From contig CM074516.1 of assembly GCA_037379345.1 (NCBI GenBank), forward strand, positions 37,423,626-37,487,625: a stretch of 64,000 bases of DNA. Direction: 5' to 3'. This DNA comes from Perna viridis (taxonomy: Eukaryota). Position numbers: made by a program. Below, one piece after another: positions 1-63,000 of the stretch; within the stretch, counting starts at the first letter, position 1; each line of letters begins with the position of its first letter.

Positions 1-3000
1 TGAGAGGACTGTTCATACAGATGTTCTGTTTGGTGTTGTGAAAAAGGCTCAAAGAGAAAGAAAGCATAAAGGTCTTAAGCAGATGAAGGTACTATTCATG
101 ACATAATCTGGGTTGCTTTTGTCCCACCAAGATCTTTGGGCTATAAATTTTTATCTATGCAATTGTAAGTTCCTGCATTGTATGACACCTAAACATTTAC
201 CACAAAATATTACCTAGGTCACCATATCATATAATCCAATAGGTTAAAATTAATGACATCAAAGTTTGACCTTTGTTATACAATAAAAAGGTGATGATTA
301 TTACTGAATATATATAATCTACTGGTATTGTATGATATATATTGCCCTTACAAGCTTGTCTAATATAAAATACTACTACAATATTACCAAAGTCTTCATG
401 CAATTAACCTGAATCATTAAAACTCACTTTAAACTTTGCTAAAAATCAACTGGATAGTTTGAACAAATTTCTAATCACATATTGAGACTGTAAAGTTGCA
501 CAAAATTTGGCAATGATTTAATATTTTTGCTTAAGGTTTTCAATATTGGCTCAGTTATTGGTCCAAGGCTAGCCATATTGGATTGAGGCATAGCATAATC
601 AATATGGAAAACCTTACACAATTATACTTTTATTGACTTACTAGTTCAGTACATCATAGTGGCCTAGGCCAACATGTATTTTAACCAAGCCAGTATGATG
701 TTTTGGACAAGTAAAGCTGTATTGGATGGCTAAGTCCTGTATTAGTGCACTTTAGAATTTTGTATTGTATTAGCAGTTATGATCATATGTCAATAATACA
801 TGTACCTGGTACATTTTTTTTGTATTTTGTTAATTTTGTTTGTAGATTATAGTGATGTCAGCCACAATGGATGTAGATCATTTTTCAAATTATTTCAACA
901 GAGCACCTGTGTTATACCTTGAAGGTAGACAGTACCCTGTTCAGGTAAGCAGCACCTTGATTATACCTCAATCTGATAGAAATTTTATAGCAAGGTAAGG
1001 GATTATATTCAAATGTAAAAGAAGAAAGGCAATCTGTAAAGGGAGATAATCCAATTCGGGAGATCTGACAAAAATCTGTCCTTTTACAAAATATAGCAAA
1101 TATTAAATTCAATTTTAATTTTTTGTATGTTATGATTAAACCTGTACTGAGTGCTCCTGTATATCTGTTACAGGTATACTACTCTACAACAAGTCAGTCT
1201 GACTATGTGATGGCAGCTGTGGTGACTCTTTTCCAGATACATAAAGAAAATCCTCCAAAGTAGGTTTGACGTCTTGATTTGGAACATTAGATAGGGTTTT
1301 ATACTTTTTTATAACCCTCAATGATGCTGTCTATCAGTCTGTTCATCCTTTTGTACACAGTCTTGTTAGTGTAGTTTCTCTTAATTGCTCAATGGATTTT
1401 TATGAAACTTCATAGAAAAATTAGAAGTTATATTTCAATGACGGAAGATAATTATTGTCTCAGGCCTGCACTAAAAGAGTTTTACCTGTTCTTATCTGCT
1501 GAATGTGACACTTCCTTAACTACTCAATATATTCTGAAAAAACTGCATATGAGTTAAGACATCAATTAAGGAATGACGGTTCAATTTTTTCGGTCTATGA
1601 GGAAATAACCTTGATCATATGGTGCACACTAAAAACCGGTGTAGCATGTTATATTTAAGTGGGCACCATGGGCATTGAGGTTATTGTAAATAGACCGAAA
1701 AAGTATTGCGGTCATTCCTTATAATTCAATATTAGTCAGGGATCTCCATGGATCAAAATGAACATATGGTTCACTCTTTGGTTGGACAGATTCATGTAGA
1801 AAATAACTTGCCAATGAAAGTATGAAAAGGTTGAATGAAACGTATGTAATAACACAAGCTACAACATAGAAATTAATAATCTACAATGGTAAATCTTTCT
1901 GTCTGTACCGTGTAACTCAATTGGACCAAGGTAAACTTTTTTCTTCCTTAGGCTCTAGAGAAATTAAAATCACTGTTAGGTTTGGTCATTTTGTTGATAC
2001 CATTAAAAAGTTCTTTATAATTTAACCACAAGAACTTTAATAGTCAAATGTTGTTTTTGTCTGAATCTGTGCCATTAAACAATATTTTTGAGTTTTTGGG
2101 AGTTGATCCATCACCCTTTCAAAAAAATTCAGCAAATTGGATTGCTTTTCTGTGTCAGATAAATGCTGAGATCGTTAAGACCATATTGTATAAATTAAAG
2201 ATCGTCTCCACCCCCCTCTCCGATCTTTCTCAAATTTAATTCAACTCTTGATATTTTCTATATTTTATTATATGAAAAGTTATCAAATTTTATTAATTAA
2301 ATAAAACAGTAGAAATCATTCAGCTTATTTCAATTTTGAAGATTTTGACGACAGTGATAATTGCGAATTTGGCCGATCTGAGATTTGTTTACACGTGTGT
2401 TTCACTGCCTGACACAATAACCCCCTGGAAATTACCAATCAAAATATCGTATAATTACCATTAGAATAAACACTAGTGCCAATCATATTGAATTATGACA
2501 GATATAGGTGATTAATAAGCACCGGTAATTGGGAAATACATTGCCAATTTGCAATGTGTGGTTCAAATTTTAATACATGGCACAAGGAAAGTAACACAAG
2601 TGCAATGCCATGCAAAAAGATGTCATGGAGAACCCGGGTAGTATCAAATTTTAAGGACTAAATCAGCCAAAAAGTTGATGACGTCACAGTCACATAACAA
2701 AATTTGGTTATGAGATGATGGACACAATTTTTTATCCAATCAGAAAGTGTGTTACATCTGAAATTAAATTATATGTAGATATACATATACTTGAAGGGAG
2801 ATAGTTTATATTGTTGGTTGCCTGTAAAGGGATATTGTGCAATATAAGGCTACATGCATTACATATTAGAAGTCCAAGTGAACAGAGGCATATCAATTTT
2901 GTGAGCATGCAAACATTTTTTTGTCATTGCCGTCTGATGTCTTTTTTATTTTTCTCTGATTATTGCATAAGACTTTCTGTTTCTTGGAAAAGTTCCAGAA

Positions 3001-60000: not shown

Positions 60001-63000
60001 TAGTGAGACCTTAGCCAGTCTGTTGTCAGACAAGGATGAGACATGTAGACATGTAACCTGCCCCTATAGCCAGTCTGTTGTCAGACTAGGATGAGACATG
60101 TACCCTGCCCTATAGCCAGCCTGTTGTCAGACTAGTATGAGACATGTAGACATGTACCCTGCCCCTATAGCCAATGTGTTGTCAGACTAGGATGAGACAT
60201 GTACCCCGCCCCTATAGCCAATCTGTTGTCAGACTAGGATGAGACATGTATCCTGCCCCTACTATAGCCAATCTGTTGTCAGACTAGGATGAGACATGTA
60301 CCCTGCCCCTACCATCGCCAGCCTGTTGTCAGACTAGGATGAGATGTGTACCCTGCCCCTATAGCCAGTCTGTTGTCAGACTAGGATGAGACATGTACCC
60401 TGCCCCTACTATAGCCAATCTGTTGTCAGACTAGGATGAGACATGTACCCTGCCCCTACCATCGCCAGTCTGTTGTCAGACTAGGATGAGACATGTACCC
60501 TGCCCCTATAGCCAGTCTGTTGTCTGACTAAGATGAGACATGTACCCTGCCCCTATAGCCGTCTGTTGTCAGCCTAGAATGAGACATGTACCCTGCCCTA
60601 TACCCAGCCTGTTATCTACAGGGGGAAAGGCATATATACATAACCTTAATACCTACCTGTTCCATTGCAATACCTAAGGTATACCCATGTATACCCTTAA
60701 TACAAGTTCCCATATAAGACCTAAGGATTACCCATGTATATGTATACCCTTATTTCTGTTCCCATGTAAGACTCAAGGATTACCCATGTACACTTTTATT
60801 TCTGTTCCCATGTAAGACTTAAGGATTACCCATGTACACCCTTATTTCTGTTCCCATATAAGACTTAAAGATTACCCATGTACACCCTTATTTCTGTTCC
60901 CATATAAGACAAAGGATTACCCATGTACACTTTTATTTCTGTTCCCATGTAAGACCTAAGGATTACCCATGTATATGTACACTCTTAATTCTGTTCCCAT
61001 GTAAGACCTAAGGATTACTCTTGTATATGCATACCTCTATTTCTGTTCCCATGTAAGACTTAAGGATTACTCATGTACACTCCTATTTCTGTTCCCATGT
61101 AAGTCTTAAGGATCACCCATGTACACTCTTATTTCTGTTCCCATGTAAGACTTAAGGATCACCCATGTACATCCTTATTTCAGTTCCCATGTAAGACCTA
61201 AGGATTACCCATGTACACTTTTATTTCTGTTCCCATGTAGGACTTAAGGATCACCCATGTGCACTCTTATTTCTGTTCCTATGTAAGACCTAAGGATTAC
61301 CCATGTATATGTACACTCTTATTTCTGTTCCCATGTAAGACCTAAGGATTACCCATGAATATGTATACCCTTATTTGTGTTCCCGTGTAAGATTTAAGGA
61401 TTACCCTTGTACACTTTTATTTCTGTTCCCATGTAAGACTTAAGGATCACTCATGTACACCCTTATTTCTGTTCCCATATAAGACTTAAGGATTACCCAT
61501 GTACACCCTTATTTCTGTTCCAATATAAGACTTAAGGATTACCCATGTACACCCGTATTTCTGTTTCCATGTAAGACTTAAGGATTACCCATGTACACCC
61601 TTATTTCTGTTTCCATGTAAGACTTAAGGATTACCCATGTACACTTTTATTTCTGTTCCCATGTGAGACTTAAGGATCACCCATGTACACTCTTATTTCT
61701 GTTCCCATGTAAGACCTAAGGATTACCCATGTATATAAACACTCTTAATTCTGTTCCCATGTAAGACCTAAGGATTACTCTTGTATATGCATATCTCTAT
61801 TTCTGTTCCCATGTAAGACTTAAGGATCACCCATGTGCACTCTTATTTCTGTTCCTATGTAATACCTAAGAATTACCCATGTATATGTACACTCTTATTT
61901 CTGTTCCCATGTAAGACCTAAGGATTACCCATGTATATGTATACCCTTATTTGTGTTCCCGTGTAAGATTTAAGAATTACCCATGTACACTCTTATTTCT
62001 TTTCCCATGTAAGACTTAAGGATTACTCATGTACATTCTTATTTCTGTTCCCATGTAAGACTTAAGGATTACCCATGTGCACTCTTATTTCTGTTCCCAT
62101 GTAAGACTTAAGGATCACCCATGTACATCCTTATTTCTGTTCCCATGTGAGACTTAAGGATCACCCATGTACACTTTTATTTCTGTTCCCATGTAAGACT
62201 TAAGGATCACCCATGTACACTCTTATTTCTGTTCCCATGTAAGACCTAAGGATTACCCATGTATATGTACACTCTTAATTCTGTTCCCATGTAAGACCTA
62301 AGGATTACTCTTGTATATGCATACCTCTATTTCTGTTCCCATGTAAGACTTAAGGATCACCTATGTACACTCTTATTTATGTTCCCATGTAAGACGTAAG
62401 GGAAGAATGTAAAGCATAATATCGGATCTTGAATAAAATAAAACTATGAAGACAAAAAAACAAAAATTATTATCCATTCTTAAAACCAAGGGTAGCCTTA
62501 TTTCTAGTTCCACAGTAAAGGATACCAAATTTTAGTTCATTACCTGTTCTAAGGTAAGACCAGGGGGTACCCATGTGTACCCTAATGATACTGTTTCCTC
62601 TTTTGTAGCACAATTAACAGGATCATCTAACCGTTTCCAACCAAGTCTGTCTCTAACATTTACAAAATTTAAGTTGTAGATGTCATGTAACTCCCGGGGA
62701 CATTTGCATATTTGACAAGTGTTTCTGGAAGAAAGAATAATATGGTTAAACACAAGGTGACCTACAAAAATCAAGATACATGTTTCAAAATGAAAACTTG
62801 CATTAATACACAACGTAGCTTGGTCAGCACTTTAAATAGTTGCAGTCCATGGAAAATGGCAAATACAAGTTTTATTTTCATACATATGAACAGAGTAGCA
62901 TAAAAACCATTGAATAGATAGATAATTGGAGTAGACCCTGCTTTATATGCTATTACACTCACACTAAGTATAATTAGTATGAACCCCCATCATGAGCTAC

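What the first reader, a model, noticed from the sequence alone, without database searches (positions are those of the whole stretch)
900..62590. Recurrent, polarised mechanism: intronic tandem repeats nucleate at exon 3' ends and expand downstream
Seen: four clear cases (exon ends 5896, 11313, 13601, 62544) and two weaker ones (944, 14959) among about 21 donors in the window. All expand into the downstream intron in the direction of transcription, on both strands. I saw none at acceptors. Inference: either a mutational process tied to donors (R-loops, Pol II pausing, exon nucleosomes or methylation), or a selective filter in which duplications spanning a donor are tolerated because the first donor still works. 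This could be a lineage-wide route to intron growth and new splice sites.
Basis: partly seen in the sequence, partly recalled or inferred. Interest (0 to 1): 0.7.

Follow-up and report, generated by a model that had tools for sequence, protein, structure and literature searches.

The report
Minisatellites seeded by exon ends
In two neighbouring animal genes, several introns begin with tandem repeats copied from the end of the preceding exon and its splice donor; single cases are known in human genes and amphioxus ("mirages"), but they are unusually dense here.

Summary
I modelled 21 donors and 22 acceptors exon by exon: a DEAH-box helicase gene on the + strand and a PET/LIM gene on the - strand.

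- **Clear cases:** at 4 of 21 donors (exon ends 5896, 11313, 13601, 62544) the last 40 nt of the exon recur in the downstream intron (z 6.7 to 25).
- **Weak cases:** 944 and 14959 are suggestive only.
- **Acceptors:** 0 of 22 show the mirror pattern.
- **Chance:** non-array intron 40-mers reach z>=6 in 0 of 224 samples. Random placement predicts about 0.24 donor-spanning arrays among the 10 genic arrays; 2 to 4 are seen.

This is a known kind of structure: a minisatellite whose first monomer spans an exon-intron boundary. Human examples are F7 intron 7, IFI 6-16, CBS, LMNB2 and PDGF; in amphioxus they are called "mirages".

A donor-specific mutational process is possible but unshown. The arrays grew by internal block amplification, not by polar spread from the exon.

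The donor-versus-acceptor asymmetry is not significant in this window alone (4:0, p=0.125). No genome-wide test, RNA evidence or polymorphism data were available.

The parts
5723..5896 (+). Helicase exon E5. Its last 25 nt plus the donor form monomer 1 of the 35-nt array.
   Evidence: PDB match to DHX35, E 1e-14, aligned to residue 56 of 57. Junction found.
5872..6162 (+). 35-nt minisatellite with 8 full copies and a 13-nt partial copy. The donor GT is kept in 5 of 7 downstream copies.
   Evidence: TRF score 351; in-register print; homologous 9-mers; last40-versus-intron z 9.4-10.7.
11209..11313 (+). Helicase exon E10. Its last 45 nt plus the donor (GTTAGT) form monomer 1 of the array.
   Evidence: PDB match to Prp43-type helicases, E 2e-4, residues 2-32 of 35. 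Junction found.
11269..12599 (+). Minisatellite of 75-89-nt units, 17 copies, with a 316-nt higher-order block. The donor hexamer is GT-type in 6 of 16 downstream copies, AT-type in 9, and deleted in 1.
   Evidence: TRF scores 840-1871; MAFFT alignment of units; identities; z 23.5-24.8.
13401..13601 (+). Helicase exon E11. Its last 39 nt plus the donor are the first copy of a decayed three-copy repeat.
   Evidence: Pfam OB_NTP_bind, E 2.1e-3, at the exon end. Junction found.
13563..13724 (+). Decayed repeat: the exon copy 13563-13612, a second copy 13623-13657 (GT changed to GC), and a third copy 13680-13724 (GT kept).
   Evidence: Alignments 26/35 (z 7.7, 0 of 500 shuffles) and 36 of 45 columns; z 8.4-10.1. 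TRF did not call it.
14850..14959 (+). Helicase exon E12. The array abuts its donor, and the last 15 exon nt resemble the last 15 nt of the unit (10/15).
   Evidence: Pfam OB_NTP_bind, E 7.6e-9; in-register print; binomial p 0.002.
14961..15168 (+). 69-nt repeat with 3 copies, starting at intron position +2. This is a weak case: the 40-nt exon part gives z -0.7.
   Evidence: TRF score 381.
846..999 (+). Exon E1 (846-944) and a possible old 49-nt duplication (902-950 against 951-999) with a second donor-like site one period downstream. Weak case.
   Evidence: PDB match 1-33 of 33; z 3.7-4.2. The adjacent 49-mer score is reached by 0.03% of 3000 random intron pairs, but I chose the register after seeing the match.
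62544..62724 (-). PET/LIM gene exon M1. Its last 55 nt are homologous to the 46-nt array unit.
   Evidence: Weak Pfam PET match (E 0.19) that ends at profile position 30, while M2 starts at 32 with E 6e-20. Junction found.
62497..62518 (-). Degenerate copy of the unit, one period (about 46 nt) downstream of the homologous exon segment.
   Evidence: Local alignment z 3.9, reached by 1 of 300 shuffles.
60657..62401 (-). 46-nt minisatellite of about 36 copies, derived from the end of exon M1. In the units I read, AA stands where the donor GT was.
   Evidence: TRF score 2117; alignment to the exon end, 43 of 60 columns. The array matches M1 alone among 21 exon segments, z 5.9. Sequence read.

Best explanation
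These are boundary-spanning minisatellites, the structures called 'mirages' in amphioxus.

1. Origin (inferred). A short segment made of the last 15-55 nt of an exon, the 5' splice site and the first 10-50 nt of the intron was duplicated in tandem. The likely route is replication slippage or unequal exchange between short imperfect direct repeats.
2. Growth (shown). The array then grew by unequal exchange of single units and of multi-unit blocks.
3. Tolerance (inferred from the human F7 work, not tested here). Such arrays persist at donors because the spliceosome uses the most upstream of the reiterated 5' splice sites. The mRNA therefore stays unchanged. Any use of a downstream copy would give a transcript with a premature stop.
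4. Polarity (inferred). The same duplication inside an exon or across an acceptor would insert sequence into the mRNA and be removed by selection. This produces the donor-only pattern.

Open point: donors are hit more often than random placement predicts, and the filter alone does not explain that.
For: - Anatomy. Monomer 1 of each array is the conserved coding end of the exon plus its donor.
- Direction exon to repeat. The exon copies encode residues conserved in solved DEAH helicases.
- Unequal-exchange signatures. There are 70-nt and 316-nt higher-order blocks. In the E10 array the central copies are homogenised and carry a shared G-to-A change in the donor, while both edge copies stay closest to the exon copy. 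The E5 array ends in a 13-nt partial copy.
- Exon-specific test. 4 of 21 donors reach z>=6, against 0 of 22 acceptors, 0 of the other control comparisons and 0 of 224 non-array intron 40-mers.
- Cost of misuse. Read on from the exon frame, a stop lies at intron position +2, +28, +103, +2 and +10 for E5, E10, E11, E12 and M1. In each that is before the first downstream GT-bearing copy. At E1 the pseudo-site, about 50 nt downstream, would shift the frame.
- Precedent. In F7 intron 7 the identical pseudo-sites are functional but only the most upstream site is used. Four further human genes have the same layout (PMC1557585; introduction and discussion read). Amphioxus mirages do not disturb splicing (PMC3087553 section 16; PMC3902484 passage).
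Against: - The filter explains polarity but not the excess over intron interiors. About 0.24 donor-spanning arrays are expected among the 10 genic TRF arrays. Two are seen strictly (P 0.025), three counting the one that abuts a donor (P 0.002), and four counting the M1-derived one (P 1.2e-4).
- A 403-bp duplication of a human exon-intron junction (FGG) causes aberrant splicing, so tolerance is not universal (PMC9052919, abstract read).
- In amphioxus an acceptor-spanning mirage exists (PMC3087553).
- No RNA data show which donor is used here. In the E10 array five downstream copies carry GTGAGT, closer to the consensus than the exon's own GTTAGT.
Confidence: 0.6

Rival explanations
1. Donor-coupled mutational hotspot. 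DNA breaks or replication slippage are intrinsically more frequent at exon 3' ends and 5' splice sites, for example through splicing- or transcription-coupled events or chromatin phasing. Tandem duplications would then arise there more often than elsewhere. This can coexist with the filter.
For: - 4 of the 10 genic TRF arrays are derived from an exon end or abut a donor, where about 0.24 are expected.
- 4 to 6 independent events lie in two genes on opposite strands.
- The copies are 74-98% identical to the exon copy, so the events are recent.
Against: - Nothing in the sequence marks a break mechanism.
- The unit start points in the exon vary (-15 to -55) and the unit lengths vary (35 to 89 nt).
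- The window may have drawn attention because of this very pattern, so a look-elsewhere effect applies.
- The mechanism is called 'unclear' in the amphioxus literature too (PMC3087553).
Confidence: 0.25
2. Chance clustering. Minisatellites are simply abundant in this genome, and this window happens to hold several that include a donor. Genome-wide there is no enrichment.
For: - Arrays cover a large share of intron DNA: 36 of 260 random intronic 40-mers lie in arrays.
- With thousands of 64-kb windows in a genome, a few windows with P around 1e-4 are expected.
- The strict TRF-only count (2 arrays) has P of only 0.025.
Against: Four strong cases plus two weak ones, in two unrelated genes, each specific to the adjacent exon. 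Non-array introns show 0 of 224 comparable matches.
Confidence: 0.15
3. Selected function. The reiterated 5' splice-site-like motifs are kept because they bind U1 snRNP, acting as backup donors or splicing enhancers, or suppressing premature polyadenylation in AT-rich introns.
For: - In the E5 array the intron-derived part with the donor is slightly better kept (0.93) than the exon-derived part (0.85), and 5 of 7 copies keep GT.
- The introns are 69% A+T.
Against: - The most amplified variants have lost the GT: 9 of 16 downstream copies in the E10 array, and the M1 array units that I read.
- Copies share ancestry through block duplication, so the number of independent changes is too small to show constraint.
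Confidence: 0.07
4. Assembly artefact: mis-collapsed or mis-expanded repeats at exon edges.
For: None specific. Tandem arrays are hard to assemble, so the copy numbers may be wrong.
Against: - Copies differ by many substitutions and indels in ordered patterns.
- The window has no N.
- Old, decayed cases such as E11 cannot be assembly products.
Confidence: 0.03

Closest known systems
Human F7 intron 7 minisatellite of 37-bp units, and the same layout in IFI 6-16 intron 2, CBS intron 13, LMNB2 and PDGF intron 4 (as listed in PMC1557585)
   Same: The first monomer spans the exon-intron boundary, the donor is reiterated in the intron as pseudo-sites, and the units are 31-100 bp in 5-26 copies. In all of these the array lies on the donor side.
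   Different: - They are single, isolated cases in vertebrate genes. F7 carries only 4 exon nt in its monomer, whereas here it is 15-55 nt.
- Here 4 to 6 of 21 donors in 64 kb are affected, five of them in one gene.
- Splice-site use and polymorphism were shown experimentally there and are untested here.
Amphioxus 'mirages': minisatellite-like tandem duplications of exon/intron boundaries in Adh3, globins BflGb6 and BflGb9, troponin C and PGBD5 (PMC3087553, PMC3902484)
   Same: Tandem repeats of 10-160 bp span an exon-intron boundary in an invertebrate. They were suggested to be common in that lineage. They show concerted evolution inside the array with the edges excluded, and they have been proposed as a route to new introns.
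   Different: - In amphioxus both 5' and 3' exon boundaries are affected. Here only donors are (0 of 22 acceptors).
- The lineage differs: this window is 32% G+C, and its organism was not identified.
- The original Adh3 paper (Canestro et al. 2002) was not held, and the supplementary alignments were closed.
Intron gain by tandem duplication of an exonic AG|GT proto-splice site (the Rogers model; PMC2891723 and PMC2812944, passages read)
   Same: A tandem duplication carries splice signals, the extra copy ends up intronic, and transcripts with premature stops are expected from mis-splicing.
   Different: There the duplication lies inside an exon and creates a new intron the size of the unit. 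Here an existing intron is lengthened and no new intron position is created.

Membership tests
Boundary-spanning minisatellite ('mirage' / F7-IVS7 type) | Head-to-tail array of units of about 10-160 bp | tested here: met
   TRF finds 35 nt x 8.3 copies, 77 nt x 16.5, 69 nt x 3.0 and 46 nt x 36.5. E11 is a decayed three-copy repeat found by alignment only.
Boundary-spanning minisatellite ('mirage' / F7-IVS7 type) | The first monomer contains the end of the exon and the splice site | tested here: met
   Met for E5 (25 exon nt), E10 (45 nt), E11 (39 nt) and M1 (55 nt, diverged). Exon ends are confirmed by homology to their last residues or within three of them. E12 and E1 are inconclusive.
Boundary-spanning minisatellite ('mirage' / F7-IVS7 type) | The splice signal is reiterated in downstream monomers (pseudo-sites) | tested here: met
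   GT is kept in 5 of 7 downstream copies in E5 (3 have the same 9-mer as the true site), in 6 of 16 in E10, in 1 of 2 in E11, and at the E1 site. It is lost in the M1 array units that I read and shifted in the E12 array.
Boundary-spanning minisatellite ('mirage' / F7-IVS7 type) | Normal splicing is kept and the most upstream donor is used | not testable with these tools
   No transcript data. Indirect support only: the coding sequence continues correctly from the first donor (chain 6zm2_A aligns E5 to 318-370 and E6 to 374-401), and stops lie in the intron before the pseudo-sites.
Boundary-spanning minisatellite ('mirage' / F7-IVS7 type) | Copy-number polymorphism or instability | not testable with these tools
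   Only one haplotype of one window was available.
Boundary-spanning minisatellite ('mirage' / F7-IVS7 type) | Concerted evolution inside the array, with edge copies excluded | tested here: met
   In the E10 array copies 5-13 share the AT-type hexamer and the 316-nt block. Copy 2 and copies 14-16 are closest to the exon copy (43-45 of 46). In the E5 array copies 5 and 7, and 6 and 8, form a 70-nt block.
Intron gain by duplication of an exonic proto-splice site | The duplication lies within an exon and creates a new intron of unit size | tested here: not met
   The arrays lie inside existing introns of 666-4995 nt, and the unit is 35-89 nt. The age of these intron positions was not tested.
Transposon-borne satellite (array carried by a mobile element) | The same unit occurs at other loci | tested here: not met
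   None of the 11 arrays has a match outside itself in the window (blastn-short, E<=1e-3). This could not be tested genome-wide.

The most novel reading that the evidence does not exclude
In this lineage exon 3' ends and 5' splice sites are true mutational hotspots for tandem duplication. Boundary-spanning minisatellites would then arise at a fifth or more of donors genome-wide. They would be a main driver of intron growth, intron-length polymorphism and a standing supply of decoy or new 5' splice sites, with a strict donor polarity that amphioxus mirages lack.
Probability: 0.2. Interest if true: 0.75.

Novelty: new member of a known kind. Interest (0 to 1): 0.42.

Why it matters
If the density seen here (4 to 6 of 21 donors) holds genome-wide, the structure gains weight in three ways.

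- **Intron growth.** Exon-end duplication would be a measurable source of intron growth and intron-length variation in this animal. In these two genes such repeats already make up about 7% of intron DNA, and up to 61% of one intron.
- **Splice-site choice.** It would give a natural, many-locus test of how a spliceosome chooses among identical 5' splice sites. So far that question has been studied in a handful of human genes.
- **Annotation.** These arrays create strings of good-looking false donors and open reading frames that can mislead gene predictors.

If the density is only local, this is one more example of a known curiosity.

Tried and rejected
- **Whole-frame translation.** I then worked exon by exon.
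- **Other arrays as displaced exon-end copies.** Seven arrays (4314, 7238, 8190, 14158, 19356, 58188, 58940) match no exon above noise. The best z values (2.5-4.4) are to unrelated exons.
- **Acceptor-side duplication at E4.** The z 3.2-4.0 hit is an 18-nt A-rich match about 980 nt upstream, beyond exon E3, so I treat it as chance.
- **G+C-driven seeding.** Arrays are 0.29-0.47 G+C against 0.309 for intron. But the seeding exon ends E5, E10 and E12 are only 0.28-0.33, so this is not supported.
- **Transposon origin.** No array unit recurs elsewhere in the window.
- **Polar growth away from the exon.** There is no gradient of identity with distance.
- **Selection on the reiterated GT.** There are too few independent changes to judge.
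- **RNA genes.** Rfam gave 0 matches at gathering score and ARAGORN found 0 tRNAs.
- **Exons without a match.** E7 found nothing in PDB at E<=10. E13, M0 and E0 found nothing in Pfam.
- **Literature on molluscs.** Searches found no paper describing boundary-spanning minisatellites in a mollusc. An abalone paper reports only an ordinary intronic minisatellite (PMC6905558, passages read). The 'mirage' hit in PMC13712769 is just the everyday word.
- **Original Adh3 paper.** Canestro et al. 2002 (PMC117041) is not held.

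
Full report
**What the window holds.** It is 64 kb with no N and 25-41% G+C. I do not take it for human.

Three genes are present.
- On the + strand lies the 3' two-thirds of a DEAH-box RNA helicase gene. The best solved relatives are DHX35, Prp43, DHX8, DHX15 and Prp16. I recalled a DHX33-like look, but did not test it.
- On the - strand lies a gene for a PET domain followed by LIM domains.
- Between them lies an intronless rhodopsin-type receptor ORF.

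**How the gene models were made.** I built the models from stop-to-stop ORFs, splice-site context and reading phase worked out from coordinates.

- Helicase exons: E0 (window start to 88), E1 846-944, E2 1174-1259, E3 3117-3285, E4 3972-4069, E5 5723-5896, E6 6640-6730, E7 7555-7620, E8 9832-9920, E9 10737-10803, E10 11209-11313, E11 13401-13601, E12 14850-14959, E13 15626-15707.
- PET/LIM exons, given in transcript order on the - strand: M0 63278-63193, M1 62724-62544, M2 57548-57315, M3 56053-55838, M4 38371-38171, M5 33381-33207, M6 25949-25780, M7 25221-25035, M8 24516-24368.

Nineteen of the 23 exons have a Pfam or PDB match, M1 has only a weak PET match (E 0.19), and E7, E13 and M0 have none.

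The matches are colinear and abut at the junctions:
- In chain 6zm2_A, E1 covers 161-193, E2 194-220, E5 318-370 and E6 374-401.
- In DHX8 (6icz_Y), E0 covers 689-709 and E1 713-745.
- M1 ends at PET profile position 30 and M2 begins at 32.

**The observation.** Tandem Repeats Finder lists 11 distinct arrays with score above 200. Ten lie in the two genes.

- *5896.* The array 5872-6162 starts 25 nt inside exon E5. Eight copies stand in exact 35-nt register. Copy 1 is the coding end of the exon plus 10 nt of intron.
- *11313.* The array 11269 to about 12600 starts 45 nt inside exon E10 and has 17 copies of 75-89 nt.
- *14959.* The array 14961-15168 starts at intron position +2 after exon E12.
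- *62544.* The array 60657-62401 lies 142 nt into the M1 intron on the - strand. Its 46-nt unit aligns with the last 55 nt of M1 (43 of 60 columns). Among 21 exon segments tested it matches M1 alone (z 5.9). One degenerate copy lies one period after the exon's homologous segment (62497-62518, z 3.9).
- *13601.* TRF did not call this case. Alignment shows a decayed three-copy repeat: the exon copy 13563-13612, a second copy 13623-13657 (26/35, 0 of 500 shuffles as good) and a third copy 13680-13724 (36 of 45 columns).

**A blind test over all junctions.** I aligned the last 40 nt of every exon against the first 2.5 kb of its downstream intron and compared each score with shuffled queries.

| Comparison | Result |
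|---|---|
| Donors E10, E5, E11, M1 | z 23-25, 9-11, 8-10, 6.7 |
| Donor E1 | z 3.7-4.2 |
| Other 16 donors | z at most 1.4 |
| Mirror test at 22 acceptors | maximum z 3.2-4.0 (E4) |
| Two wrong-direction controls | z at most 2.6 |
| Random intronic 40-mers outside arrays | z>=6 in 0 of 224; z>=3.7 in 1 of 224 |

The E4 acceptor hit is an 18-nt A-rich match about 980 nt away, beyond another exon.

So four cases are solid. The 944 case is no stronger than the best control, although its 49-nt register and a second donor-like site one period downstream are suggestive (I chose that register after seeing the match). The 14959 case rests on the array abutting the donor and on 10 of 15 in-register matches (p 0.002).

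**Is it more than chance?** Each array stems from one ancestral unit, so the fair null places one unit per array at random in sequence where every array is collapsed to one unit.
- The 10 genic arrays have units summing to 545 nt. With 21 donors in about 47.5 kb, 0.24 donor-spanning arrays are expected.
- Seen strictly: 2 arrays (P 0.025). Counting the one that abuts a donor: 3 (P 0.002). Counting the M1-derived one: 4 (P 1.2e-4).

Two cautions apply.
- In present-day coordinates arrays fill much of the introns: 36 of 260 random intronic 40-mers lie in arrays. The enrichment therefore depends on counting origins, not bases.
- The window may have been noticed because of this pattern.

The donor-versus-acceptor contrast on its own is weak (two-sided 4:0 p=0.125, 6:0 p=0.031).

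**How the arrays grew.** Identity to the exon copy shows no gradient with distance.
- E5 array: 32, 31, 33, 28, 32, 26 and 32 of 35 for copies 2 to 8.
- E10 array: 40-45 of 46 across copies 2-16. Copy 2 and the far-end copies 14-16 are closest to the exon copy.
- E10 copies 5-13 form a 316-nt higher-order block and share a G-to-A change that kills the donor GT.
- E5 copies 5 and 7, and 6 and 8, form a 70-nt block.

This is the usual picture of unequal exchange, with a homogenised centre and old edges. It is not spread from the exon outward. The E5 array ends in a 13-nt partial copy. The last 15 nt of exon E12 resemble the last 15 nt of its unit. Both fit a first duplication between short imperfect direct repeats (inference).

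**State of the reiterated donors**.
- E5: 5 of 7 downstream copies keep GT, and 3 have the same 9-mer as the true site.
- E10: 6 of 16 keep GT. Five of these are GTGAGT, closer to the consensus than the exon's own GTTAGT. Nine are AT-type and one is deleted.
- E11: one copy keeps GT and one has GC.
- E12: the GT is shifted by one base.
- M1: the array units I read have AA in place of GT.

Reading on from each exon in frame, a stop occurs at intron position +2 (E5), +28 (E10), +103 (E11), +2 (E12) and +10 (M1). In each that is before the first downstream GT-bearing copy. At E1 the pseudo-site, about 50 nt downstream, would shift the frame. Use of any downstream copy would therefore give a transcript with a premature stop, not a new protein.

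**What is known.** This architecture is in print.
- Borensztajn et al. [quoted passage not shown] For F7 they show that the identical downstream sites are functional but only the most upstream one is used.
- Ebner et al. 2010 (PMC3087553; abstract and section 16 read) describe 'mirages' in amphioxus genes. These are minisatellite-like duplications of exon/intron boundaries. They were suggested to be general in that lineage, occur at both exon boundaries, have an unclear mechanism, and were proposed as a source of new introns.
- Pavelitz et al. 2013 add troponin C and PGBD5 (PMC3902484, one passage read).
- A 403-bp junction duplication in human FGG is pathogenic (PMC9052919, abstract read).
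- The related models of intron gain by tandem duplication are in PMC2891723 and PMC2812944 (passages read).
- My searches found no description of such arrays in a mollusc.

**Verdict.**
- It is a new instance, in another lineage and at unusual density (five of the six cases lie in one gene), of a known kind of structure.
- A donor-coupled mutational bias remains a live but unproven explanation for the excess.
- The 'polar expansion' wording is not supported.
- Lineage-wide importance, actual splice-site use and polymorphism could not be tested with what was available.

Noticed in passing
window 4314-4441, 7238-7485, 8190-9498, 14158-14716, 19356-20922, 58188-58418, 58940-60613: Seven further minisatellites with units of 26-91 nt and up to 38 copies. 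None is similar to any exon in the window and none has a copy elsewhere in it. Six are intronic and one (19356-20922) is intergenic. The 8190 array (77 nt x 17, 95% matches) is open in all three + frames.
   Followed up: partly
window 8190-9498 and 11269-12587: Two arrays in neighbouring introns of the same gene share a 77-nt period but have no detectable sequence similarity (no cross-hit). Unexplained; it may be coincidence.
   Followed up: partly
window 17694-18788 (- strand): An intronless 365-aa ORF matches rhodopsin-family 7TM receptors (Pfam 7tm_1, E 6.8e-22). It lies between the converging 3' ends of the helicase gene (stop at 15707) and the PET/LIM gene (stop at 24368).
   Followed up: partly
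window 44851-45695, 56376-56880, 17029-17218; also 33660-34022 vs 48098-48461: Dispersed repeat families, 70-86% identical, the second pair inverted. They lie in the long introns of the PET/LIM gene and near the receptor ORF, and are probably interspersed mobile-element remnants. One ORF from them had no Pfam match.
   Followed up: no
window 11314-11319 and array copies 3, 4, 14-16: The donor of exon E10 is GTTAGT (T at position +3), while five downstream repeat copies carry GTGAGT. The pseudo-sites therefore look stronger than the site that must be used to keep the reading frame.
   Followed up: partly
window 55838-38371 (- strand): A 17.5-kb intron of the PET/LIM gene, and others of 5-7 kb, were not searched for alternative exons. 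The donor count of 21 could therefore be a slight undercount.
   Followed up: no
whole window: No Rfam family reached its gathering score and no tRNA gene was found.
   Followed up: yes
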